NCBI GenBank assembly: GCA_965229705.1
Contig: OZ245922.1
Location: 390,001-422,000 of the forward strand
Length of the DNA: 32,000 bases
Source of the DNA: Candidatus Saccharimonadota bacterium
Lineage (GTDB): Bacteria; Patescibacteriota; Gracilibacteria; BD1-5; UBA6164
Direction: 5' to 3'
Part shown: one piece after another, positions 5,122 through 32,000 of the stretch
Position numbering within the stretch: the first letter of the stretch is position 1
Layout of the letters: each line of letters opens with the position of its first letter
Notes under the pieces: generated by a model
The model's database searches: none
What the model was told of the DNA's origin: nothing
The model's input: only the letters and a program-made list of their open reading frames with translations
Translations under genes and position numbers: made by a program

Positions 5122-5301
5122 TTGTGTTAAAAAGATGTGAAAATATAGGGAAGCACGGAAAAATAGGAAATGTGTAAAAACAAGTAGTTCAAGGAAAATG
5201 CAACTTGGCTGAAATAAGCGTACTCATTGTACGAGTTTGAAGACAATGTTGCACTTTGACGATGAAATACGAAGTTTTTCCGCATTTCCATAGCAAGAAA
5301 A

Positions 5302-7332: not shown

Positions 7333-7445
7333 TTAAGGAAGCTCTAAAAAAGACATTTTTGTTTTCTCGAGACCGGTCTCGAGTTACTTATTTCAAGGAC
7401 TTGAGACCGGTCTCTTATAAAAGATTTATCTCTTTTTAAGAAATA
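7333..7445 (+). repeat. family-A palindromic element, copy A1 (right arm degenerate)
   Basis: TTAAGGAAGCTCTAAAAAAG...TTTTCTCGAGACCGGTCTCGAGTTACTTATTTCAAGGACTTGAGACCGGTCTCTTA... The core is identical to copy A2 and reverse-complementary to A3 and A4. It is intergenic, between the 319-aa orphan stop and the ftsH start. Confidence 0.9.
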
Positions 7446-8508: not shown

Positions 8509-8630
8509 TTAAGAAGGCTCTGAAAAAAGGCATTTTTATTTTCTCGAGACCGGTCTCGAGTTACTTATTTCAAGGACTTGAGACCGGTCTCTTACACAGG
8601 ATTTTTCTATTTCTCAGAACTTCCTTTAGG
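8509..8630 (+). repeat. family-A palindromic element, copy A2 (complete)
   Basis: TTAAGAAGGCTCTGAAAAAAGG...TTCTCGAGACCGGTCTCGAGTTACTTATTTCAAGGACTTGAGACCGGTCTCTTACACAGGATTTTTCTATTTCTCAGAACTTCCTTTAGG. The outer arms are inverted repeats of each other. It is intergenic between divergent genes. Confidence 0.9.
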
Positions 8631-13160: not shown

Positions 13161-13187
13161 CAAAAAAATTTCTTCTTGTTCTAAGAT

Positions 13188-13294
13188 TTAAGGAAGCTCT
13201 GAAAAACAAAAATTTTCTAATCCTCTCTGGCTCTATCGAGCTATCTCTCCTTTGGAAAAGGAGAGAAAAAAGGAGTTTCTCAAAGTTTCCTTAA
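13188..13294 (+). repeat. family-B palindromic element, copy B1
   Basis: TTAAGGAAGCTCTGAAAAACAAAAATTTTCTAATCCTCTCTGGCTCTATCGAGCTATCTCTCCTTTGGAAAAGGAGAGAAAAAAGGAGTTTCTCAAAGTTTCCTTAA. The termini match family A. The core matches copy B2. Confidence 0.88.
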
Positions 13295-14049: not shown

Positions 14050-14171
14050 TTCTTTCAGAAGCCTCTGAGAAATAGAAAATCTTGTGTAAGATACCGGTCT
14101 CAAGCCCTTGAAATAAGTAACTCAAGACCGGTCTCGAGAAAACAAAAAGGACTTTCTCAGAGCTTGTGAAC
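14050..14171 (-). repeat. family-A palindromic element, copy A3 (inverted orientation)
   Basis: ...CTCTGAGAAATAGAAAATCTTGTGTAAGATACCGGTCTCAAGCCCTTGAAATAAGTAACTCAAGACCGGTCTCGAGAAAACAAAAAGGACTTTCTCAGAGCTT... is the reverse complement of the A2 layout. It is intergenic between trmB and mscS. Confidence 0.9.
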
Positions 14172-16383: not shown

Positions 16384-16412
16384 GTTTGTATAGTTATTGT
16401 GTATTTGCTTAA

Positions 16413-16609
16413 ATTCCTATCTTGAATTCTTTTCTCGCTCCCTTCCTTTTTTGCTAAAAGGAAGGGGTGGGGATGGAATAAGTGTATCAATTCCTATCTT
16501 GAATTCTTTCCTTTGCTCTCAAAGGAAAGAGGCTGCAGGCTTTCTATCAAGTTTTGAGCCCTCCTCCTTTTTTGTTAAAAGGAGGAGATTCAGAGGTGGA
16601 ATAAGTAAG
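16413..16609 (-). repeat. family-C multi-hairpin element, short unit plus long unit, inverted orientation
   Basis: 16489-16609 is the reverse complement of the long unit at 27667-27793 and 28591-28717 (about 95 percent identical by eye). 16413-16488 is the reverse complement of the short unit type. It fills the gap between the 476-aa gene start and the ligA stop. Confidence 0.9.
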
Positions 16610-20654: not shown

Positions 20655-22447
20655 CTCTTATTCTTGATGAGATTATAAATCAAGGACTGACAAAACTTCA
20701 CAAGTTTTCTATCAAAAAAAAATGATCACAAGAATTAGGTTTTTCAAAAGAAGACTTTCATAAAATAAAAAATGATATTTATAAAGGATATAATATTGCA
20801 AAGCCTTTCCCCTCTATACGCATCCTCGAACGATATGATGAACGCGTTGAAAAATGAGAACTAGACGCTGATCCCATTTTTCGCAAAATCTTGAGAAAAC
20901 GCTGAGTCAGAAGCCTCTCTGGAGTCAGCGTCATATCACTACTAACAAAATTTTGGGGTTGTCCAGGAAAATGTGTCTACTGCCCAACATTTGAGGGACT
21001 TCCAAAATCCTATATTCCCCATGAGCCAGCCGTAATGCGCGCTGAGCTCAACAAGTTTGATCCTATCATGCAGATTCATAACAGACTGAGAGCTCTCGAA
21101 GTTACCGGTCATAAAATAGAGAAAAATGATATTCGTATTATTTGATGAACTTGGTCTTTTTACCCTAAAAAATACCAAGAAGAATTTATCAAAGGAATTT
21201 ATGATGCCTGCAATAGTTATGCTGAAATGAAAACTTATATCGAAAAAACTGATTTTGCGCACGATAGGTTTGCAAGTTTTAAGCTAAGAGAATGAACAAA
21301 GATACACCAGTCAAACTCACTACAAGAAGCACTCAAAAAAAATGAGTCTTCTCCTCAGCGAATCATCTGAATGGCAATAGAAACTCGTCCTGACTGGATC
21401 ACGCCTGAAGAACTTCAAAGACTCAGAAGTTATGGAGTCACTCGAGTCGAGATTGGCTACCAAACAACCGATGATAAAATCAATGAGATCAACAAGCGAG
21501 GACACACAAACGCAGAATCTCTCGCTGCAACCAAGATGCTCAAAGATGCGGGATTCAAAGTCGTGGCTCACATGATGCCAAACCTTATGGGATCTACACC
21601 TCAAAAAGATATAGAGTCTATGAAAGAATGTTTTACTAATCCAGATTTTCGTCCTGACGAACTCAAGATTTATCCTATGGTTGTAACTGATAAGGCAGAG
21701 CTCACTGACATCTGGAAGAAGTGATGATTTCAGGCTTATGATGACGGCACACTTATAGATCTCATGTGTGAGTTGGAGTTACTCGTTCCAGAATACTGTC
21801 GCATTAACCGAACCTATAGAGATATTCCTGCAAGTGAGATTCTTCACGGATCAACGCTTTCAAATCTCAGGCAGCTGGTAGAAGACAAGATATACAATCA
21901 GTGAAAAAAACTTGTCGATATACGCAGTCGAGAAATAAAAGACAAAGCCAATGATCCTCAGAATGCTGTTTTGAAAACTATCAAGTATGATGCAAGTGAT
22001 GGGATAGAGTATTTTCTCACCTATGAAGACCCTGAGGATAGAACTATTTTCTCTCTTCTTCGTCTTCGTATTCCCAGTAGTATTGTCTCGCCTGAGAATC
22101 AACAAATATTTGCGATGACCACAAAAGACGCACAATCTCAAGAAGAAAATCGTGATCCTCACAGAGTCCTCTTAAAAAGTATTCCTGACTATTTTCCAGA
22201 ACTCTCATGAGCAGCAATAGTACGAGAGATACATACTTTTTGAGATCAGCTTAGTATTGGAGAAAAATGAGCTCACTTTGGTCAACATATAGGGTTTGGG
22301 AAAAGGCTTATTGCTGAGGCTGAGCGTCTTGCGTGAGAACATCATGGAGTGAAAAAGATAGCTGTTATCGCGGGAGTATGAGTACGAAAATATTATGAAA
22401 AAAGATGATACATACTTGAGTGAACCTACATGACGAAAAAAATATAA
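20639..22447 (+). CDS. elp3: Elp3-like radical-SAM/GNAT enzyme (tRNA wobble-uridine modification family), 602 aa
   Basis: ATG 20639 overlaps the nrnA 3-prime end by 16 nt. The frame is open to TAA 22445-22447 (checked). Radical-SAM cluster motif FWGCPGKCVYCP. The segments IIGGTWSFYPKKYQEEF and RVEIGYQTTDD are present. The C-terminal GNAT region reads IREIHTFGDQL...GQHIGFGKRLIAEAERLA...IAVIAGVGVRKYYEKRGYILEGTYMTK. Confidence 0.88.
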
Positions 22448-22448
22448 A

Positions 22449-24389
22449 ATGAATATTACCAAAATCCTGCTTTGCGTTCTATTTTTCATACTTCCTTTTA
22501 TCCATGGGAAAATATTTTTTCAGTTTTGAATACCTCTATATTTTCCTGTAGACGGAAACTATGAGTTCACGAAGAGTATTTTTTTTCATATTTTCTCAAG
22601 CCTGATATATATAGTGTTTATTTGAGAATCTCTTCTCAATTCTTTTTTTTGTAAAAGCAAAGAACATACAAAATATTTTTCGCAAATTTTTTCTATACAG
22701 GCAATTGGCTGAAAAAGTAATACACCTCATTTTCAAGTATGAAAAATTATCTCTATATTTCTGATAATCCTCTCAATATCAACCTATTTCTCTCTCTCCC
22801 CTTTCATCTCACTCATCTGAGACACAGAAAAATGACATACAACGCTTCTCTTTGTTCATCTTGTATGAATATTTCTCATACTACGAAGTCTTGAGAAAGA
22901 GTTCTTGCAAAGACTCATATATATCACGATTTTTTCATGTTGTATTGTCAGTGTCATTGCGATAAAAGAATTATTTTTTCCTGTTTTCGATTATGGGGAG
23001 CTGTCAAGTAGGGCACTATGAACTCTTGGACACCCAAACTATCTTGCTGGATATATATTGATAATCCTTCCTCTTGTGTTTCATGCAAAACTCCCCTCTC
23101 TTATAAAAGGGGGGCTTGGGACTGTGTTAATATGAACTATCATACTTACGCAGTCTATTGTCGCGGTATTTCTCACTTTTTGCTATTTCGCGTATTTTTT
23201 TATGGCTCATATTTTTAGAAGAGGTTCCTTAAGAAAGTTCTGAAAAATAAAAAAATCTTGAGTAAGAGACTGGTCTCAAGCCCTTAAAATAAGTAACTCG
23301 AGACCGGTCTCAAAAAATAAAAGCGCTTTTTCCAGAGATTTTTTAAAGCGTTGGTGGACTCAAATATGAATATATATTCTTATCATACTTACTTTGTGTC
23401 TTTGTCTCTTACTCATACAATATTTTCCAGAAAAACTCCACTCATTTCTTTCACGTTTTAGTATTTGGGAGACAACTCTCAGGATTATTTTCTCAGATAT
23501 ACACATATTATTTTTCTGAGCAGGTCTTGAGACACTTCCCTACTTTTTTGAAAGTTTCAAGAGTCCTGAGATGTATATTTATGAAAATTTTTGATACACT
23601 GCCGATAGACCTCACAATTTCTTGCTCAATATTTTGTATCATTTAGGGATTCTTTGAGGAGTTTTTTTCTGATATTTGTTCTACCTCTTTTGCAAAAACT
23701 ACAAAAACACTCCAGAAAATCATGCGATGATACTCTTTTTATTATTCTGAATATTTCATTTTTTTTCAGTAGTAAGTTATATCGTTTTTATACTCATACT
23801 GAGTTACTCCTTACTCTCACTAAAAACCTTACCTCTCAATCTCCACTCCTCAAAAGAGAAGAGGGATGTAAATCATATTTTATGAATATGTGTATTCACA
23901 ATAATTACTGTCTTATCTTTTTTTTGATCATATTCTTCTTTTCTCCTCTATAGAGCAGAAATTCTTTATGAACAACAAAAATATCATCTAGCTCAAAAAA
24001 CTTTTTCTCATCCAAAATATCTCATAGAAATATGAAAATACCAACAAGCCGAACAAAGAGAATGAATCCTCTCTCAGTATAACCTCAAAAATCAGCTGAT
24101 AACCAAAGAAGATAAAGTCTCTTTATGTAAATATCTCACTCGTGCGTATCCTGCAGCGGAAAATTACTTATATTGTGGAAATATTCTTGAACGTATCGGG
24201 GAAAAAAATCTTTCTCTTGAGTATTATAGGCTATGACTCTTGGAACTTCCTGATCTTTGGAATCAAGATTCTCGATATTGGAAAAACTATTTTATACGAG
24301 AAACTATAAGCGGAAATAGGTTTTTTTCGGAAAAATTTTGAGATATTTGATGAGTTGTAGAAAAAGTATATAATCACAAAAATTACTAA
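22449..24389 (+). CDS. O-antigen-ligase/Wzy_C-like polytopic membrane protein with a C-terminal TPR-like region (646 aa), carrying an in-frame family-A element
   Basis: ATG 22449 to TAA 24387-24389. All 647 codons were read and there is no TAA/TAG. The N-terminal half has LGTLGHPNYLAGYILIILPLVF. The C-terminal half has FFGAGLETLPYF...ADRPHNFLLNILYHLGILGGVFF (Wzy_C-type signature). The two halves are in one frame across repeat copy A4. Confidence 0.8.
23223..23348 (-). repeat. family-A palindromic element, copy A4, located inside a CDS
   Basis: GGTTCCTTAAGAAAGTTCTGAAAAATAAAAAAATCTTGAGTAAGAGACTGGTCTCAAGCCCTTAAAATAAGTAACTCGAGACCGGTCTCAAAAAATAAAAGCGCTTTTTCCAGAGATTTTTTAAAG is collinear with A3. 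In the host frame it translates as RRGSLRKFGKIKKSGVRDWSQALKISNSRPVSKNKSAFSRDFLK. Confidence 0.9.
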
Positions 24390-24399
24390 TCTCATTTTT

Positions 24400-24813
24400 A
24401 TGTATAACTGGTCCATTATTTCTCAAATACTCAAAGAGGTTGAAAAAAAAGATATACTCAATACGCAAAGAATAAAAGATTCTGACAATGCTGATGTCTT
24501 TAGAAAATATATAAAATCAGATATATTCTTTGATGAAATTTCCAGTGAAATACAAGAAGTAAAAGATGAAAATAAAAAAAACAACTCTGTATATCTTGAG
24601 GATGAGCTCTGAGATATTTTTTGGGATTATATCAATCTCTTATACTTTTTGGAAAAAGAGAATAAAATATCTCTTGAAAGAGTATTTGAAAGGTGTTTAA
24701 GAAAATATAGTGATCGTATTTCTGCTTTAGAAAATTGAGTATTGTGGGAAGATATAAAAAAGCAGCAAAAAGAATCTCTCGCGAAAGAACATAAACAAAA
24801 ATATGAACTTTAA
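24400..24813 (+). CDS. MazG-like nucleotide pyrophosphohydrolase (137 aa), tentative family call
   Basis: ATG 24400 to TAA 24811-24813 with two in-frame TGA codons. The acidic helix pattern DEISSEIQEV...LEDELGDIFWDYINLLYFLEKENKISLERVFERCLRKYSDRI resembles the small MazG/YpjD fold (ExxE...ELGD). Confidence 0.6.
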
Positions 24814-24914
24814 AAAACTTCTGAAAAATACAAACTCCCTAATCCTCTCTGGCTCTACCAAACCATCCCTCCTTTGTAAAACGAGAGAAAAAGGACTTTC
24901 TCAGAGTTTCCTTT
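24810..24914 (+). repeat. family-B palindromic element, copy B2
   Basis: TTTAAAAAACTTCTGAAAAATACAAACTCCCTAATCCTCTCTGGCTCTACCAAACCATCCCTCCTTTGTAAAACGAGAGAAAAAGGACTTTCTCAGAGTTTCCTTTT is collinear with B1. Its left terminus overlaps the MazG-like stop codon. Confidence 0.88.
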
Positions 24915-25549: not shown

Positions 25550-25560
25550 AACTACATATT

Positions 25561-25589
25561 TTGTAGAATATTATAAGCCTTGGTATATT
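25561..25589 (+). promoter_or_regulatory. candidate promoter upstream of the ilvA leader
   Basis: TTGTAG (25561-25566), 17-nt spacer, TATATT (25584-25589). Confidence 0.3.
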
Positions 25590-25967
25590 TTACCAAAATA
25601 TGTAAACCTAATTGCTGCAATTGTAACAAAAATTGTAAAATAATTTGTGTTTCTTTGCCATACTCATATACTCAAAAACATAAAAAACGCTTGAGTTTCG
25701 CTATCACGAAACGAGTTGGAGGAAGAATGCGAGCAAAGCTCGCAAGATAAAAGTTTAAAGATGAAAGTTTAAAGTATTTATGTTGCTTTTCACTTTCTAC
25801 TTTCCAATTTTTACTTGCGGCAAAATCGCTATTAGACCCTCTCGGAGTCGAAAATCTTCGTAAAAAAAATACAATCAAGAACTGCTTGAGGTGGTACCTT
25901 CCTTGTCTGCTCTTTTGGAGCTTCCAAGGACCGAAAGCGCATAATATTTTTTTTATGTGCTTTTTTT
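25590..25967 (+). promoter_or_regulatory. about 380-nt untranslated leader of ilvA with a T-box-like core motif (hypothesis)
   Basis: GAGGTGGTACC at 25888-25898 matches the GGUGGUACC core of the T-box antiterminator consensus. Hairpins are present upstream (TGCGAGC-AAA-GCTCGCA, GTTTCG-CTATCA-CGAAAC). A T-run lies at about 25950-25958. Stem I features and a specifier codon could not be identified by eye. Confidence 0.25.
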
Positions 25968-27564: not shown

Positions 27565-27819
27565 AAATACAAAAATATTTTACTTATTTCACCTCTGAAT
27601 CTCCTCCTTTTAACAAAAAAGGAAGGGAGCGAGAAAGGAATTCAAGATAGGAATGGAGAAAACATATTACTTATTCCACCTCTGAATCTCCTCCTTTTAA
27701 CAAAAAAGGAGGAGGGCTCAAAACTTGATAGAAAGTCTGTAGCTTCTTTCCTTTGAGACCAAAGGAAAGAATTCAAGATAGGAATTGAGAAAATATTTGT
27801 CCGAAATGACAGAAAACTA
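27563..27819 (+). repeat. family-C element: short unit (27579-27654) plus long unit (27667-27793) plus a shared 26-nt flank, ending 5 nt before tRNA-Ser
   Basis: The long unit is TTACTTATTCCACCTCTGAATCTCCTCCTTTTAACAAAAAAGGAGGAGGGCTCAAAACTTGATAGAAAGTCTGTAGCTTCTTTCCTTTGAGACCAAAGGAAAGAATTCAAGATAGGAATTGAGAAAA. It has two perfect hairpins (CTCCTCCTTTT/AAAAGGAGGAG and CTTTCCTTTG/CAAAGGAAAG). Confidence 0.9.
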
Positions 27820-27824
27820 CTTCT

Positions 27825-27917
27825 GGAAGGGTGGCTCGAGTGGTTGAAGGCGCGCGCTTGGAAAGCGTGTAAGTTGGATTTCCGGCTTCGCGGGTTCGAA
27901 TCCCGTCCCTTCCTCCA
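27825..27917 (+). tRNA. tRNA-Ser (anticodon GGA), long variable arm, CCA encoded
   Basis: Acceptor GGAAGGG/CCCTTCC, anticodon stem CGCGC/GCGTG with loop TTGGAAA, long variable arm, T arm with GGTTCGAATCC, then T + CCA. Confidence 0.9.
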
Positions 27918-27979
27918 GTTTATATTATATAGGACGGATGAGAAGTTTATACCTGAAAGGTTAATCCCGTCCCTACCCA

Positions 27980-28043
27980 ACTCTTCCTTTTAGCAAAAAA
28001 GGAAGGGAGAAATGAAGCAATTCAAGATAGGAATTGAGAAAAC
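27980..28043 (+). repeat. family-C element, truncated short unit
   Basis: CTCTTCCTTTTAGCAAAAAAGGAAGGGAGAAATGAAGCAATTCAAGATAGGAATTGAGAAAAC. It shares the hairpin and the GAATTCAAGATAGGAAT terminus of family C. Confidence 0.8.
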
Positions 28044-28098: not shown

Positions 28099-28503
28099 AT
28101 GAAAAAGCTTATTCGCATTTCCAGACTTGCCTCAAAAGAGGCTATCAAAGATTTAAAAGCAAAAAATCCTCTTTATTGTAGTGCAATAAAAGAAGATTTC
28201 ACCGTAACTAATATTTTTTATTCTCATATTATTGGGTACAAAAAATCTCGCCCAGATAGAGAAGTAGTAGAAAGACTTATCGTCATGAATCTTATACAAA
28301 AAATTGCCCAAGAATGAGTATTAAAAGAAAAACGGAAAAATGGAGCTTTTGAATGAGCAATATACCAAAATACCTATAAAATTATGCTAAAAAAATGATG
28401 AATTTGTTTCTATGTTATTATTTGAGAGGAAAAATCTGGAAAATATATTTTGCTAAGCTGCTTTGTAAAAGACTATCGAAAAAATAAAGACTCATTCGTT
28501 TAG
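28099..28503 (+). CDS. hypothetical protein (134 aa)
   Basis: ATG 28099 to TAG 28501-28503 with five in-frame TGA codons. Sequence MKKLIRISRLASKEAIKDLKAKNPLY...IAQEGVLKEKRKNGAFEGAIYQNTYKIMLKKGGICFYVIIGEEKSGKYILLSCFVKDYRKNKDSFV. No family is recognised. A possible TATAAT lies at 28077-28082. Confidence 0.62.
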
Positions 28504-28573: not shown

Positions 28574-28743
28574 AAAAATACAAAAATATTTTACTTATTC
28601 CACCTCTGAATCTCCTCCTTTTAACAAAAAAGGAGGAGGGCTCAAAACTTAATAGAAAGTCTGTAGCCTCTTTCCTTTGAGATCAAAGGAAAGAATTCAA
28701 GATAGGAATTGAAAAAACATTTGTCCGAAATGACAGGAAACTA
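28574..28743 (+). repeat. family-C element, long unit plus the same 26-nt flank that precedes tRNA-Ser
   Basis: 28591-28743 differs from 27667-27819 at 6 of 153 positions (my count). The 5-prime leader AAAAATACAAAAATATTT matches the leader of the short unit at 27563. Confidence 0.92.
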
Positions 28744-28838: not shown

Positions 28839-31800
28839 ATGTCACTACCTAAAGTAAACCCAAAACAAAGCTTCCCAGAACTTGAAGAAAATATACTCCA
28901 GTTTTGGAAAGAAAATGATATTTTTCAAAAATCTATTGATAATAGACCCGAAGATAGACCATATAGATTTTATGATGGCCCTCCATTTATTACCGGAACT
29001 CCACACTATGGAAGTCTTCTCTCAAGTATCATCAAGGATATCATACCACGCTATCAAACCATGCAAGGAAAACGCGTTGAGAGAAAATGGTGATGGGACT
29101 GTCACGGACTCCCTATCGAAGAAAAAGTGCAAAAAAAACTTGGACTCGAATCAAATAAAGAAATAGAAGAAACTGTAGGAATCAAAAAATTTATCGAAGA
29201 ATGTTATAACTATACAAGAGAAACTTCTGCAGAATGGCAGTGGTATATCGATCATATCGGTAGATGGGTAGATACAGACAATGCCTACAAAACTATGGAT
29301 CAAGACTACATGGAGTCTGTTATGTGGGTATTTCAACAACTCTGGAAAAAGTGAATGATTTATAAAGGGCAACGCGTATCTCTCTACTCATGGAAACTCT
29401 CAACTCCTATCTCAAACTTTGAAGTTGCAATGGATGATAGCTACGAAGAAGTATCTGATCCAGCTATCACTGTGATGTTTCCCCTAACCTCATCCCAACA
29501 TTCCCCTCAGGGAGAATCAGTAAGCAAGAGTAACTCAGAAAATGTAGCCTCTCTCTGAGAGGAGAGAGAATTCAAGAATGAGATTTCTGGTGGAAAACAC
29601 GTTCAAGAGTGAGATTATCTCTTAGCGTGGACAACAACACCCTGGACGATTCCAGCTCATATGGCTATCGCTGTGAATCCTGAGCTTGCCTACTCTCGAG
29701 TCTTCTCAGAAAACATATACTACATTCTCGCAACTGCTCGAGTAGAAACATTATTTAAAGGAAAAGAGTATGAAATCACAGAGAGTTTTATGTGATCAGA
29801 CCTCATCTGACTCTCGTATGATGCTCCTTTCAAATACTATCAAGGAAAAGTTGACTCAGAGAAAAATCATCGAGTCTTAGCAGCAGACTTTGTGACTGAT
29901 AGTGATGGGACTGGTATTGCTCACGAGGCTCCAGAGTTTGGTGATGTAGATTTTCAGCTTGCCAAAGAAAAGTGAGTCCATATCTCAAACGCTCTTGATA
30001 ATGCTGGAAAATATACAGAAGAAATCTCTGACTACGAATGAATGCACTACAGAGAAGCAAATGATGTGATCACAGAAAAACTCAAAGAACTATGAAGACT
30101 CTTCAAAAAAGAGTCTATCAATCACCGAGTCGCAATGTGTCCTCGTAGTGGTACTCCCCTCATTTATAAAGCGCAAGACTCATGGTTTATCAATATTCAA
30201 GATCTCAAAGATAAGCTCATCGACGAAAACGAAGGAATTAACTGGCAGCCAGGGCATCTCAAACATGGACAATTCCTAAAGTCTATGGAAAGTGCTCCTG
30301 ACTGGTGTATCTCTCGAACACGATATTGGGGAACTCCTATGCCAATATGGGTAGGTCGAGATAGTGACGGAAAAGATCAGGATATAAAGGTTTTTTGAAG
30401 CAAACAAGAAATAGAGTCAGCATCATGAATGAAAATTACAGATCTCCACAGACCATATATTGACGATATCACTTGGGAGGAAAATGGACTCACATATACA
30501 AGACTCCCCGAAGTCCTTGATGTATGGATGGATAGTGGCTCGATGCCATACGCGCAAATGCATTACCCATTTGAAAATAGTACTGAGATGGAAGCCAGCT
30601 ACCCTGCTGATTTTATCGTTGAGTATATCGGACAAGTCAGAGCCTGGTTTTATGTCATGCATGTTGTCGGAACAGCGCTCTTTGATAAACGAAGTTTTAC
30701 CAATGTTATTACAACAGGAATCGTCAACGGATCTGATGGAAGAAAAATGAGTAAATCATACGGAAACTATCCAGATCCTCGAAAAACTATTGAGACATAT
30801 GGCGCAGATGCTATCAGATTTTATATGGCAAACTCTCCCCTACTTACAGGTGGGAATATGGATTTTAAAGAAGAATGAATCCTCGAAGTTGTGAAGAAAT
30901 TGATCCTCCCACTCTGGAATACCTATTCATTTTTTACGACTTATGCAAATATAGATTGATTTGAACCTATGAACTCTCAAAAAATTAAAGTTCAAGGAAA
31001 CTGAGATTTTTCTGAGAAGAGCATACTTAATAGTAGGAGTTCGAAGAAAATATCTCAAAGTGACGATGAAATTTGAACTTGTTCAAAGCTTCAAAGAAGT
31101 AATCCTCTCGATATCTGGATTATCTCAGAAGTACATAGTCTTACTCAGCAGGTTACAAAAGCAATGGAACACTATGAAGTTACCGAGGCTACTCGTCCAA
31201 TTGTACAATTTATGGATCACCTCACTAACTGGTATATACGTCGAAGTAGGAAGCGTTTTTGGAAAAGTGAAAATGATCAAGATAAAATGCAAGCCTACGA
31301 AACGCTCTATGAAGTACTCATAGAACTATGTAAAATTATGGCACCTTTTACCCCATTTATTACCGAAGAAATATATAAGAATCTTACAGGGAACCTGTCT
31401 GTGCATTTAGAAGATTTTCCTACGAGTAATAGCTCACTCATAGATACTGATCTCAATGCAAACATGAGTCTCTGCCAAAAAATTATTAGTCTTGGTCTTT
31501 CTCTCAGAACAACTCAAAAAATCAGAGTAAGGCAACCTCTTCAAAGTATTTCTATCTGAGAAACGCTTTCTGACTACTACAAAGATATTATTAAAGAAGA
31601 ACTCAATGTGAAAGAAGTCCTCCAAGGAGATAGTAGTTCTATCGCAAAAAAAATATGTAAACCAAATGGTCGACTCATTGGACCAAAATTTGGAAAAGAT
31701 GTAAAAAATATTATTTCACAAGCAAAAGCTGGAAATTTTACAGAAATAGATCAAAATACAATCCTAATTCTCCCTCTTGATAAAGAACAGAAGGGGTGGG

Positions 31801-32000
31801 AACTCACTTGAGATGAGTTTGAAATAGCATTTATCAGTGAAGATCACTGTGATAATATCGAGTCATGATTTGGTATGGTGATTTCTATGGATCTAGAGTT
31901 GACTGATGAACTTGTTGCGGAAGGTTATGCTCGTGATATAGTGAGGCATATTCAAGAAGCACGAAAAGAAGCAGGCTATGAGGTTGATGATCGTATCTGT
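28839..32000 (+). CDS. ileS: isoleucine--tRNA ligase, type 2 (eukaryote-like); 3-prime end beyond the window
   Basis: ATG 28839. Track ORFs 28839, 29127, 29355, 30135, 30429, 31164 and 31608 share one frame, and the gaps contain only TGA (checked). Motifs seen: [14 protein letters not shown] (HIGH-type), [39 protein letters not shown], and [14 protein letters not shown] (KMSKS). The frame is open to 32000. Confidence 0.95.

What the first reader, a model, noticed from the sequence alone, without database searches (positions are those of the whole stretch)
29497..29592. IleRS carries an extra about 35-aa segment that looks like a diverged in-frame family-C element
Type-2 IleRS usually has only a short linker between the conserved ...VMFPL and [10 protein letters not shown] blocks. 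This gene has [44 protein letters not shown] there. At the DNA level the segment mirrors the family-C layout:
- ATTCCCCTCAGGGAGAATC versus the element start ATTCCACCTCTGAATC;
- CTCAGAAAA versus CTCAAAA;
- an exact TGTAGCCTCT (29543-29552, also at 28662-28671);
- a hairpin CTCTCTC-TGAGAG-GAGAGAG in place of CTTTCCTTTG/CAAAGGAAAG;
- an exact GAATTCAAGA (29568-29577), as at the element end.
If correct, a second repeat family also colonises coding sequence in-frame, here in an essential gene.
Basis: partly seen in the sequence, partly recalled or inferred. Interest (0 to 1): 0.65.

Follow-up and report, generated by a model that had tools for sequence, protein, structure and literature searches.

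The report
Selfish palindromic repeat inside IleRS gene
A 100-base palindromic repeat sits in-frame inside the essential isoleucyl-tRNA synthetase gene of a Gracilibacteria bacterium and adds a floppy 32-residue loop; the same repeat family sits inside many housekeeping genes of this group, much as RPE repeats do in Rickettsia.

Summary
The window comes from a Gracilibacteria-type genome that reads TGA as Gly. Its type-2 IleRS has a 44-residue linker where 80 of 112 scorable orthologues have about 12. The extra 96 nt (element 29486-29585) is an eroded copy of the window's intergenic "family C".

Family C is a widespread Gracilibacteria palindromic element with terminal inverted repeats and two hairpins that covary. 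A pattern scan found at least 118 stretches, nearly all in Gracilibacteria MAGs. About 37 of 132 copies lie in-frame deep inside long genes (HtpG, QueH, MetRS, RNase R, an ABC ATPase and others), in all six frames.

The IleRS copy is 81% identical to a copy in another genome's HtpG. It is only 65-70% identical to intact copies at the same IleRS site in two other lineages, so that loop was hit repeatedly.

Between two strains the insert evolves neutrally (dN 0.22, dS 0.18) while the flanks are constrained (dN 0.01). It is modelled with low confidence (pLDDT below 50), and one of its codons is an in-frame TGA.

Larger versions carry a DUF559 (Vsr-like) nuclease, also translated in-frame inside RecG and Fmt. 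This nuclease is a candidate mobilising enzyme, which is inference only. The closest analogue is the Rickettsia palindromic element.

The parts
28839..32000 (+). Type-2 isoleucyl-tRNA synthetase gene read with TGA=Gly (code 25). The 3' end runs off the window.
   Evidence: The code-25 translation is open for 1054 codons. Best PDB match is Priestia megaterium IleRS2 8C8U/8C8V at E=2e-209, against type-1 1FFY at 5e-75. TGA aligns with the Gly of the GWDxHGLP motif. Flanks are under purifying selection versus strain L001 (dN 0.009-0.010, dS 0.06-0.15).
29486..29585 (+). Eroded in-frame copy of the family-C palindromic element (100 nt). It adds a net 96 nt, or 32 codons, relative to orthologues with a 12-residue linker.
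   Evidence: nhmmer with the 123-copy external profile aligns 29486-29588 at E=1.5e-11. The copy is 81% identical to the L033 HtpG copy and 80% to the L097 copy. Its RNAfold z-score is only -0.8 to -1.6, against -5 to -8 for intact copies.
29486..29493 (+). 5' terminal inverted repeat remnant, AACCTCAT.
   Evidence: It aligns with AACCTCAC/AACCTCAT at the 5' end of copies in L033, L097 and L066. It is complementary to 29578-29585 with one mismatch.
29500..29517 (+). Hairpin 1 remnant, ATTCCCC-TCA-GGGAGAAT.
   Evidence: It aligns with hairpin 1 (CTTCTCCTCA..GAGAAGG and similar) of canonical copies. In the family, all 7 predicted hairpin-1 pairs show compensatory changes.
29543..29577 (+). Conserved core: TGTAGCC, then hairpin 2 (arms 29549-29555 and 29562-29568), then GAATTCAAGA.
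   Evidence: It matches the pattern exactly, as do the intergenic copies. Hairpin 2 has at least 9 consecutive pairs in 95 of 102 distinct cores.
29556..29558 (+). In-frame TGA in the hairpin-2 loop, read as Gly (ASL-G-EERE).
   Evidence: The codon phase is (29556-28839) mod 3 = 0. Under the standard code this codon would truncate IleRS.
29578..29585 (+). 3' terminal inverted repeat remnant, ATGAGATT.
   Evidence: It corresponds to GTGAGGTT of canonical copies.
28590..28715 (+). Intact intergenic long family-C copy just upstream of IleRS.
   Evidence: nhmmer E=1.6e-44 with the window profile. RNAfold gives -44.3 kcal/mol, z -8.3, as a multi-branch fold.
27666..27791 (+). Intact intergenic long family-C copy upstream of tRNA-Ser. 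A short form at 27579-27660 precedes it.
   Evidence: tRNA-Ser lies at 27825-27917.
16484..16609 (-). Intact intergenic long family-C copy on the minus strand, with a short form beside it at 16407-16486.
27961..28040 (+). Short-form family-C copy downstream of tRNA-Ser.

Best explanation
SHOWN. The segment 29486-29585 is a decayed copy of a mobile or mobilisable palindromic DNA element, the window's family C. The element is about 85-125 nt long and consists of imperfect terminal inverted repeats, hairpin 1, a spacer closed by GGCTACA/TGTAGCC, and hairpin 2. The family is abundant in Gracilibacteria genomes, both between genes and in-frame inside genes.

In IleRS the copy sits in the turn between the strand ...AITVMFP and the strand carrying the WTTTPWT motif. 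That this motif belongs to the CP1 editing domain rests on established knowledge of class Ia synthetases. The copy is a multiple of three in length, has no TAA or TAG in the frame used, and its one TGA is a Gly codon in this organism, so the reading frame runs straight through it.

The gene around it is under strong purifying selection. The insert itself evolves at the neutral rate and has lost most of its hairpin potential. It is therefore an old passenger, not a functional module.

INFERRED. The insert is translated as a flexible surface loop that IleRS tolerates. The same loop was hit independently in at least three lineages, because the copies there belong to different subfamilies and neutral decay is fast. 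Selection removes most genic insertions and leaves those in permissive loops.

MORE SPECULATIVE (about 0.35). Mobility depends on a DUF559 (Vsr-like, PD-(D/E)XK) nuclease carried in the central loop of full-length versions of the element. It would act in a homing-like or break-repair-copy manner, which would fit the absence of target-site duplications and the repeated occupancy of identical sites.
For: Delimiting the insert:
- 80 of 112 scorable orthologues have the short linker; only the sister strain shares this insert.

Family membership:
- The external profile hits at E=1.5e-11.
- 15 nt at the 5' end, outside the search pattern, are identical to the L033 copy.
- The peptide matches in-frame copies in HtpG, DPRP, QueH and an ABC ATPase.
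- The window-only profile hits the L003 IleRS insert at E=3.3e-6.

The family is real:
- At least 118 stretches were found in GTDB genomes, nearly all Gracilibacteria-type MAGs.
- IMG/VR viral contigs gave only 2 matches, both without a hairpin.
- 11 of 17 consensus pairs show compensatory changes.
- 95 of 102 distinct cores keep a stem of at least 9 bp.
- Intact copies fold with z -5 to -8.

Genic copies:
- 47 of 140 cores lie in stop-free spans of at least 250 aa.
- 37 of 132 lie at least 35 aa into such spans.
- Pfam domains flank the inserts on both sides.

Passenger status:
- WIN and L001 are 96.5% identical over the gene but 81% over the insert.
- Insert dN 0.22 and dS 0.18, against flank dN about 0.01.
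- The AlphaFold2 model has mean pLDDT 82.8, with residues 225-251 below 50 between confident strands 202-216 and 260-265.
- In PDB 8C8U the insert falls between residues 213 and 217.

Independent hits:
- The WIN copy is 0.81 identical to the HtpG copy but 0.70 and 0.65 to the L002 and L003 IleRS copies.
- The L002 IleRS copy is 0.92 identical to the L037 QueH copy, while IleRS flanks between these genomes are about 0.74.

DUF559 link:
- DUF559 (Pfam E=3e-30 to 1e-33) sits between the element's 5' and 3' halves, in-frame, inside RecG and Fmt.
- 12 of 14 DUF559 domains lie within 62 nt of an element hit. Only 14% of random windows in the same loci lie within 150 nt.
- The domain matches PDB 3HRL at E=4e-14.
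- The Vsr/DUF559 clade includes a group I intron homing endonuclease (PMC3424549).
Against: - With window data alone the profile match is only borderline (E=0.01) and covers only the 3' third.
- The strong external-profile E-value is partly circular, because the training copies were collected with a pattern derived in part from this insert.
- No target-site duplication was found in 27 delimited copies.
- No empty allele of this species was found, so the exact junctions and the insertion event itself are not observed.
- Translation of the insert is inferred from frame and length, not from peptide data.
- No DUF559 gene is present in the window or in L001. Its role in mobility is untested, and it could be cargo or merely a frequent neighbour.
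- The NJ tree rests on a single protein.
Confidence: 0.87

Rival explanations
1. The segment is an old, lineage-specific peptide loop of IleRS, unrelated to the repeats. The shared 10-mers are chance.
For: The window-only profile gives only E=0.01 over 37 nt. The hairpins are weak (z -0.8 to -1.6).
Against: The colinear pattern occurs 0 times in 100 shuffles. The 15-nt 5' identity and the peptide-level match to copies in unrelated genes of other genomes are not explained by chance. Most orthologues lack the segment. It evolves neutrally.
Confidence: 0.02
2. One ancestral insertion at this IleRS site in the common ancestor of the clade, followed by many precise losses. Under this view the copies in WIN/L001, L002 and L003 are orthologous.
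For: The insert lies at the same codon position, after VMFP[LI][TV], in all three lineages. Palindromes flanked by short repeats can be excised precisely (general knowledge).
Against: The three copies belong to different subfamilies (100 nt versus 86 nt). Each is closer to copies in other genes than to the others. The WIN-L001 comparison shows neutral decay, so an ancient orthologous copy could not still be intact, yet the L002 and L003 copies fold at z -7.4 and -5.9. Uninserted orthologues all keep exactly 12 residues.
Confidence: 0.08
3. The insert is kept because it does something. It could be an RNA hairpin in the IleRS mRNA that controls translation or stability, or a peptide loop that modulates editing or binds a partner.
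For: The frame is preserved in both strains. The site adjoins the editing-domain motif. In the family, hairpin-2 mismatches are almost all T.G (68 against 5 C.A), which fits selection on one single strand.
Against: dN/dS is about 1.2 in the insert, against about 0.07-0.15 in the flanks. The hairpins have decayed in both strains. The model gives low confidence for the loop. The same sequence sits in unrelated proteins in all six frames and between genes.
Confidence: 0.05
4. The element is removed after transcription or translation (intron-like or intein-like), so the mature IleRS lacks it.
For: The element folds into a compact multi-helix structure. Full-length versions carry a nuclease ORF in a loop, an arrangement reminiscent of mobile introns.
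Against: Genic copies keep the host frame open and are multiples of three in IleRS (96, 84 and 84 nt), which splicing would not require. At 85-125 nt the element is too small for a group I or II intron (general knowledge). No Rfam family matches. No intein motifs were seen in the peptides. The decayed WIN copy could no longer fold, yet the gene stays under selection.
Confidence: 0.04
5. The direction is reversed: a piece of coding sequence (from IleRS or another gene) was copied into intergenic regions and gave rise to family C.
For: The long intergenic copies are open in one frame under code 25 (checked by eye while working; no numbered call printed this translation).
Against: The intergenic copies are the intact, strongly palindromic ones and the IleRS copy is the decayed one. 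The family's conservation is at the DNA-structure level, with compensatory changes, not at the peptide level. All six frames are used in genes.
Confidence: 0.01

Closest known systems
Rickettsia palindromic elements (RPEs; Ogata et al. 2000 and 2002, as summarised in PMC10969869)
   Same: Both are short (about 100-150 bp) palindromic repeats present between genes and, unusually often, in-frame inside unrelated housekeeping genes. Both add a peptide segment at places compatible with the protein fold. Both occur in reduced genomes of host-dependent bacteria.
   Different: The phylum is unrelated (Gracilibacteria/CPR) and no sequence relationship was tested or is expected. Here all six frames and orientations are used. 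The in-frame TGA codons depend on the UGA=Gly recoding. Larger versions carry a DUF559 nuclease domain, whereas the review read names no enzyme for RPEs.
Bacterial MITEs with intragenic in-frame copies (ERIC, BOX, Correia, Nezha and others; review PMC10969869)
   Same: Small size, terminal inverted repeats, strong secondary structure, many copies per genome, no transposase in the short form, and occasional in-frame fusions.
   Different: No target-site duplication was detected. No IS element with matching ends was found. The only associated ORF is a Vsr-like nuclease, not a DDE or other known transposase.
Homing endonuclease genes of the Vsr-like/EDxHD lineage (I-Bth0305I; clade 'VSR, DUF559, DUF2726' in PMC3424549; Taylor et al. 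2011 as cited in PMC9403480)
   Same: A PD-(D/E)XK, Vsr-fold nuclease ORF is embedded in a structured element. That element occupies the same site of conserved genes in a patchy phylogenetic pattern (IleRS sites 1 and 2, RecG).
   Different: The known examples sit in self-splicing introns or inteins. Here nothing indicates splicing: the nuclease domain and its palindromic arms appear to be translated as part of RecG or Fmt. Activity and target specificity are untested.
REP/BIME elements with RAYT transposases
   Same: Abundant palindromic repeats, often in tandem arrays between genes. The strand asymmetry of mismatches is compatible with a single-strand intermediate.
   Different: REPs are 20-40 nt, essentially extragenic, and carry GTAG/CGTC heads (PMC3733652 abstract). 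No RAYT gene was seen.

Membership tests
RPE-like in-frame palindromic repeat (functional class) | A short repeated element with a palindromic structure, present in many copies per genome | tested here: met
   The window holds 3 long and 3 short copies in 32 kb. Related genomes hold at least 118 stretches. Both hairpins covary.
RPE-like in-frame palindromic repeat (functional class) | Copies lie inside protein-coding genes without breaking the frame | tested here: met
   IleRS is open through the element. 37 copies lie deep in ORFs of at least 250 aa, with Pfam domains on both sides.
RPE-like in-frame palindromic repeat (functional class) | The insertion site is compatible with the host protein's fold (a surface loop) | tested here: inconclusive
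   The insert falls in a 3-residue turn of PDB 8C8U. It is modelled at pLDDT below 50 between confident strands. Solvent exposure and enzyme activity were not measured.
Rickettsia RPE families proper | Sequence homology to RPE-1 to RPE-10 and occurrence in Rickettsia | not tested
   No RPE sequences were available. The host is Gracilibacteria (names). It is therefore not filed as a member, only as working like one.
MITE | Terminal inverted repeats | tested here: met
   AACCTCAC...GTGAGGTT, extendable to about 15-17 nt with a bulge. The window's intergenic copies have ATTCC..TGAAT / ATTCA..GGAAT.
MITE | Target-site duplication flanking each copy | tested here: not met
   In 27 delimited copies, 2-3-nt flank matches are at chance level (3 of 27) and none is 4 nt or longer. 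The flanks merely continue as A-rich on the left and T-rich on the right.
MITE | A related autonomous IS or transposase with the same ends | tested here: not met
   No transposase was seen. The only ORF found between the element's ends is DUF559.
Homing-endonuclease-driven element | Encodes a nuclease of a family that includes known homing enzymes | tested here: met
   PF04480 hits at E=3e-30 to 1e-33 lie between the element halves. PDB 3HRL matches at E=4e-14. Clade membership follows PMC3424549. This applies to full-length versions elsewhere; none is in this window.
Homing-endonuclease-driven element | The same target site is occupied in a patchy way across orthologues | tested here: met
   IleRS site 1 is occupied in WIN/L001, L002 and L003. 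Site 2 is occupied in at least 6 orthologues. These lineages are scattered on the tree.
Homing-endonuclease-driven element | Site-specific cleavage of empty alleles and copying by repair | not testable with these tools
   This needs biochemistry or genetic crosses.
Type-2 IleRS (host gene) | Closer to IleRS2, eukaryote-like and Thermus enzymes than to type 1, with class I motifs and the editing motif intact | tested here: met
   8C8U E=2e-209, 1ILE 2e-183, 1FFY 5e-75. WTTTPWT is conserved.

The most novel reading that the evidence does not exclude
Gracilibacteria harbour a previously undescribed kind of mobile element: a structured palindromic cassette whose full-length form encodes a DUF559 (Vsr-like) nuclease and homes into permissive loops of essential genes. 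It is not spliced out but simply translated through. Its miniature derivatives, such as the IleRS insert, spread with the nuclease's help in trans. The UGA-to-Gly recoding of these bacteria more than doubles the number of stop-free frames per element (2.9 against 1.2 of 6), which makes their proteome unusually permissive to such invasion. The same permissive IleRS loops also hold whole Nudix and His_Phos_1 domains in related lineages.
Probability: 0.3. Interest if true: 0.8.

Novelty: new variant of a known kind. Interest (0 to 1): 0.62.

Why it matters
Selfish repeats that live inside essential genes are classically known from Rickettsia. These results extend the same behaviour to the candidate phyla radiation. 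They also give a clean, dated example: an insert shared by two strains that evolves neutrally inside a strongly constrained synthetase.

Three practical consequences follow.
- Many unexplained extra segments and low-complexity loops in Gracilibacteria proteins, which complicate annotation, alignment and structure prediction, may be repeat-derived and can be masked with one profile.
- The element offers a possible link between genetic-code change and tolerance to mobile DNA, which genome censuses can test.
- The tight association with a DUF559 nuclease gives a concrete candidate enzyme for a class of elements (RPE-like repeats) for which the 2024 MITE review read here names none.

Tried and rejected
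- Window-only profile of the three long copies: only a borderline hit (E=0.01), so I turned to comparative data.
- Two JGI metagenome scans, one for an empty allele and one for further filled alleles of this species' IleRS: 0 hits each. The insertion junctions therefore remain inferred from orthologues about 75% identical.
- IMG/VR scan with the family pattern: two matches at 48-50% GC without any hairpin, so chance. There is no sign that phages carry the element.
- Protein-database search with a profile of the insert peptides: 3 short hits only. The query was too short for a database of 5.8 billion sequences, so this was uninformative.
- Rfam at gathering and permissive thresholds: only the two tRNAs.
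- Search for target-site duplications: none.
- RNAalifold recovered both hairpins but not the outer stem, because a 2-nt offset between subfamilies misaligns the 5' ends. The outer stem is supported only by single-sequence folds and by eye.
- My first hairpin test demanded strict Watson-Crick pairs and failed for half the copies, until T.G pairs were allowed.
- Sieber et al. 2019, 'hypervariation in a Gracilibacterium', concerns a tandem PTD tripeptide repeat gene and is unrelated.
- Literature searches for CPR or Gracilibacteria together with MITE, palindromic or in-frame terms found no prior description. The library is incomplete, so this is weak evidence of novelty.
Full report
**Context**

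The window is 35% G+C. Its genes are interrupted by TGA under the standard code but open under code 25. In the IleRS gene, TGA aligns with the Gly of the conserved GWDxHGLP motif. The best IleRS matches are named Candidatus Gracilibacteria. The gene starting at 28839 is a type-2 IleRS: PDB 8C8U (Priestia megaterium IleRS2) matches at E=2e-209, Thermus 1ILE at 2e-183 and type-1 1FFY at 5e-75.

**Checking the observation**

The code-25 translation reads [59 protein letters not shown].

- The window holds three long family-C copies (28590-28715 +, 27666-27791 +, 16484-16609 -) and three short forms.
- The colinear pattern AGCCTCT-N(8-26)-AGAATTCAAGA occurs three times in the window, twice in long copies and once in IleRS. 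It occurs in none of 100 shuffles.
- A profile of the three long copies alone hits IleRS 29543-29579 at E=0.01 (10.3 bits). This is the best non-family hit but still borderline.

**Delimiting the insert**

I aligned 120 orthologues. 80 of the 112 that could be scored have the short linker, typically TESHKHVQEGDY. Only P0001, a strain whose gene is 96.5% identical at the DNA level, shares the window's insert.

Empty-site DNA from two uninserted orthologues, together with the family alignment, places the element at 29486-29585. The net gain is 96 nt, or 32 codons. The parts are:

| Part | Coordinates | Sequence |
|---|---|---|
| 5' terminal repeat | 29486-29493 | AACCTCAT |
| Hairpin 1 remnant | 29500-29517 | ATTCCCCTCAGGGAGAAT |
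| Core with hairpin 2 | 29543-29577 | TGTAGCC...GAATTCAAGA |
| 3' terminal repeat | 29578-29585 | ATGAGATT |

The codon at 29556-29558 is an in-frame TGA in the hairpin-2 loop, read as Gly. It is in fact hairpin 1, and the true 5' end lies 11 nt further upstream.

**What family C is**

Nearly all are in Gracilibacteria-type MAGs; the two from other phyla have no hairpin. The same pattern in 2.9 million viral contigs gave two hairpin-less chance hits.

Intact copies fold into a multi-branch structure with an outer stem made by the terminal inverted repeats, hairpin 1, a central stem GGCTACA/TGTAGCC and hairpin 2 (z -5 to -8). Support for the structure:

- In 102 distinct cores, 95 keep at least 9 consecutive pairs in hairpin 2 although the stem sequence differs (TTTCCTTTG, TTTCTCCTG, TTTCCCCTG, CTCTCTCC and others).
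- The non-Watson-Crick positions are 68 T.G against 5 C.A. These counts are of sequences, not of independent events.
- RNAalifold on 25 copies finds compensatory changes in 11 of 17 pairs, including all seven of hairpin 1.
- No Rfam family matches.
- No target-site duplication is detectable.

**Copies inside genes**

47 of 140 cores lie in stop-free spans of at least 250 codons. 37 of 132 lie at least 35 codons into such spans.

The hosts include HtpG, a QueH/RNase HII fusion, a photolyase-related protein, an ABC ATPase, RNase R and MetRS. Pfam domains lie on both sides of the insert in each. Both orientations and all three frames are used, which gives recurrent peptides such as ...SPQGE...NVASLSSEEREFKSEV...MQPLSPGGERIQEGG and KPLSGILSPSQEKEAT.

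Delimited elements have on average 2.9 stop-free frames of six under code 25 and 1.2 under the standard code. Shuffled sequences give 1.6 and 0.86.

**Is the IleRS segment a member?**

A profile built from 123 copies, none from the window, L001, L002 or L003, aligns 29486-29588 at E=1.5e-11. This is in the range of the window's intergenic copies. That value is inflated, because the training set was collected with a pattern partly derived from this insert. The following evidence is independent of the pattern:

- The 5' 15 nt TAACCTCATCCCAAC are identical to the copy inside HtpG of another genome, and the hairpin-1 and spacer regions align as well.
- The peptide [10 protein letters not shown]...[18 protein letters not shown] matches L033 SSQPSPQGEG...NAASLSSQEREFKSEV and L097 ...NVASLSSQEREFKSEVSG.
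- The window-only profile hits the intact insert at the same IleRS site in L003 at E=3.3e-6.

I regard membership as established.

**State and history of the copy**

Between the window and L001, the flanking IleRS codons have dN 0.009-0.010 and dS 0.06-0.15. The 36 insert codons have dN 0.22 and dS 0.18. DNA identity is 81% in the insert against 96.5% in the gene. Folding z-scores are -0.8 to -1.6 in the window and -1.0 in L001, the weakest of all genic copies. The copy therefore predates the split of the two strains and has since drifted neutrally, constrained only to stay open.

Two other lineages, L002 (P0022) and L003 (P0007), have an insert at the same codon position. Three points argue that these are separate events:

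- Their copies are intact (z -7.4 and -5.9).
- They are of the 86-nt subtype.
- They are closer to copies in other genes than to the window's copy. L002 IleRS is 0.92 identical to L037 QueH. The window's copy is 0.81 identical to L033 HtpG but only 0.70 and 0.65 to the L002 and L003 IleRS copies. IleRS flanks between these genomes are about 0.74 identical.

On an NJ tree these lineages are separated by many orthologues with the 12-residue linker. Given the fast neutral decay, one ancient orthologous insert cannot explain intact copies, so I infer repeated insertion into the same loop.

A second IleRS loop, between YANIDxF and NPLDxWI, carries family-C-like inserts in at least six further orthologues.

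**Place in the protein**

In the alignment to PDB 8C8U the insert falls between residues 213 and 217. This is the turn just before the strand carrying WTTTPWT. That this motif belongs to the CP1 editing site is established knowledge, not tested here.

An AlphaFold2 model of P0001 has mean pLDDT 82.8. Strands 202-216 and 260-265 are confident, and residues 225-251 fall below 50. This fits a flexible excursion but does not prove surface exposure.

**How it may move**

In RecG (L014, L028, L032) and Fmt (L017, L117), a DUF559 domain lies in-frame between the element's 5' half (terminal repeat, hairpin 1, GGGCTACAG) and its 3' half (TGTAGCC, hairpin 2, terminal repeat). The Pfam E-values are 3e-30 to 1e-33, and the domain matches PDB 3HRL at 4e-14. 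A PriA-like gene (L088) holds a deletion derivative.

Free-standing DUF559 genes adjoin elements in other loci. Overall 12 of 14 DUF559 domains lie within 62 nt of an element hit. Only 14% of random windows in the same loci lie within 150 nt of one.

The Vsr/DUF559 clade of PD-(D/E)XK nucleases includes a group I intron homing endonuclease (PMC3424549; PMC9403480). A nuclease-driven, homing-like spread would fit the lack of target-site duplications and the repeated use of identical sites. This is inference: no DUF559 gene is in the window or in L001, and no activity is known.

**Comparison with known systems**

The behaviour matches Rickettsia palindromic elements, which are short palindromic repeats found in-frame in many housekeeping genes (review PMC10969869). 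I do not file family C as an RPE: the host phylum is unrelated and sequence homology was not tested.

It has the terminal repeats and size of a MITE. It fails two MITE criteria tested here: there is no target-site duplication and no matching transposase. It differs from known homing elements in having no sign of splicing. I found no description of such elements in CPR bacteria in the searchable literature, which is weak evidence of novelty.

**Verdict**

The finding is correct and more general than stated. It is a new, well-supported instance of RPE-like colonisation of essential genes in a recoded CPR lineage, with a plausible but untested nuclease partner.

Noticed in passing
window 30975-31059: A second in-frame insertion in the same IleRS gene. 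It is 78 nt (26 codons...[26 protein letters not shown]...), flanked by a 7-nt direct repeat TCTCAAA at 30975-30981 and 31053-31059. It is absent from the 96.5%-identical strain L001. It resembles window 5183-5283 (nhmmer E=8e-8, blastn 73% over 96 nt), and the similarity runs on into native IleRS sequence. This looks like another repeat family with a recent in-frame gain.
   Followed up: partly
IleRS orthologues P0005, P0007, P0009, P0019, P0021, P0022, P0026; L003 12744-12785: A second hotspot in IleRS, between YANIDxF and NPLDxWI, carries family-C-like inserts in several lineages (for example EKPHLNSSPQGEDETAARPLSSEERVRVR and KAHTTPLSNSLQSGERTDGNDEASFPLEGKEFKIEVSGG). Most orthologues have about 8 residues there.
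   Followed up: partly
IleRS orthologues P0028-P0104 (Pfam column; alignments): The same two permissive IleRS loops hold whole domains in other Gracilibacteria and SR1 lineages. Site 1 holds a Nudix domain (PF00293, about 140-180 residues) or a GNAT domain in SR1 Aalborg_AAW-1. Site 2 holds a His_Phos_1 domain (PF00300, about 190-200 residues).
   Followed up: no
L014 (RecG), L032, L028, L017 and L117 (Fmt), L088 (PriA-like): A DUF559 (Vsr-like) nuclease domain, bounded by the two halves of the palindromic element, is inserted in-frame inside essential genes. In RecG it sits just after helicase motif I (GTGKT). L088 keeps only the N-terminal part of the nuclease ORF between the element halves, so it is an apparent intermediate towards the miniature form.
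   Followed up: partly
102 distinct hairpin-2 cores from L001-L121: Non-Watson-Crick positions in hairpin 2 are almost always T (5' arm) opposite G (3' arm): 68 cases against 5 C.A. This is tolerated as a wobble on one strand only, which hints that the structure matters in a single-stranded form (RNA or ssDNA) of the plus strand. Most cases are at one stem position, so they may share ancestry.
   Followed up: partly
window 27579-28043 versus L001 5987-6718: The family-C array around tRNA-Ser differs between the two strains. The window has a short and a long copy before the tRNA and a short copy after it. L001 has two long copies and a short one, then another long and short pair. The window also has about 580 nt more than L001 between tRNA-Ser and IleRS, including the ORF at 28099-28317. 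Copy number is therefore changing on the timescale of 3-4% divergence.
   Followed up: no
window 25560-25627 versus L001 1984-4034: L001 carries about 2 kb with a 669-residue gene on the minus strand (no Pfam hit) that the window lacks.
   Followed up: no
window 7346-7442, 8523-8619, 14076-14146, 23252-23322; also 13187-13270 and 24809-24892: Two further repeat families. One is built on the palindrome GAGACCGGTCTC...GAGACCGGTCTC; its copy at 23252-23322 lies inside a 675-codon stop-free span (22362-24386, +). The other is an 84-nt family that is also present twice in L001.
   Followed up: no
L123 2191-2568; L002 5966-6852: Free-standing DUF559 genes lie a few hundred bases to a few kb upstream of IleRS in two other genomes. 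One of these (L123) has no insert in its IleRS.
   Followed up: no
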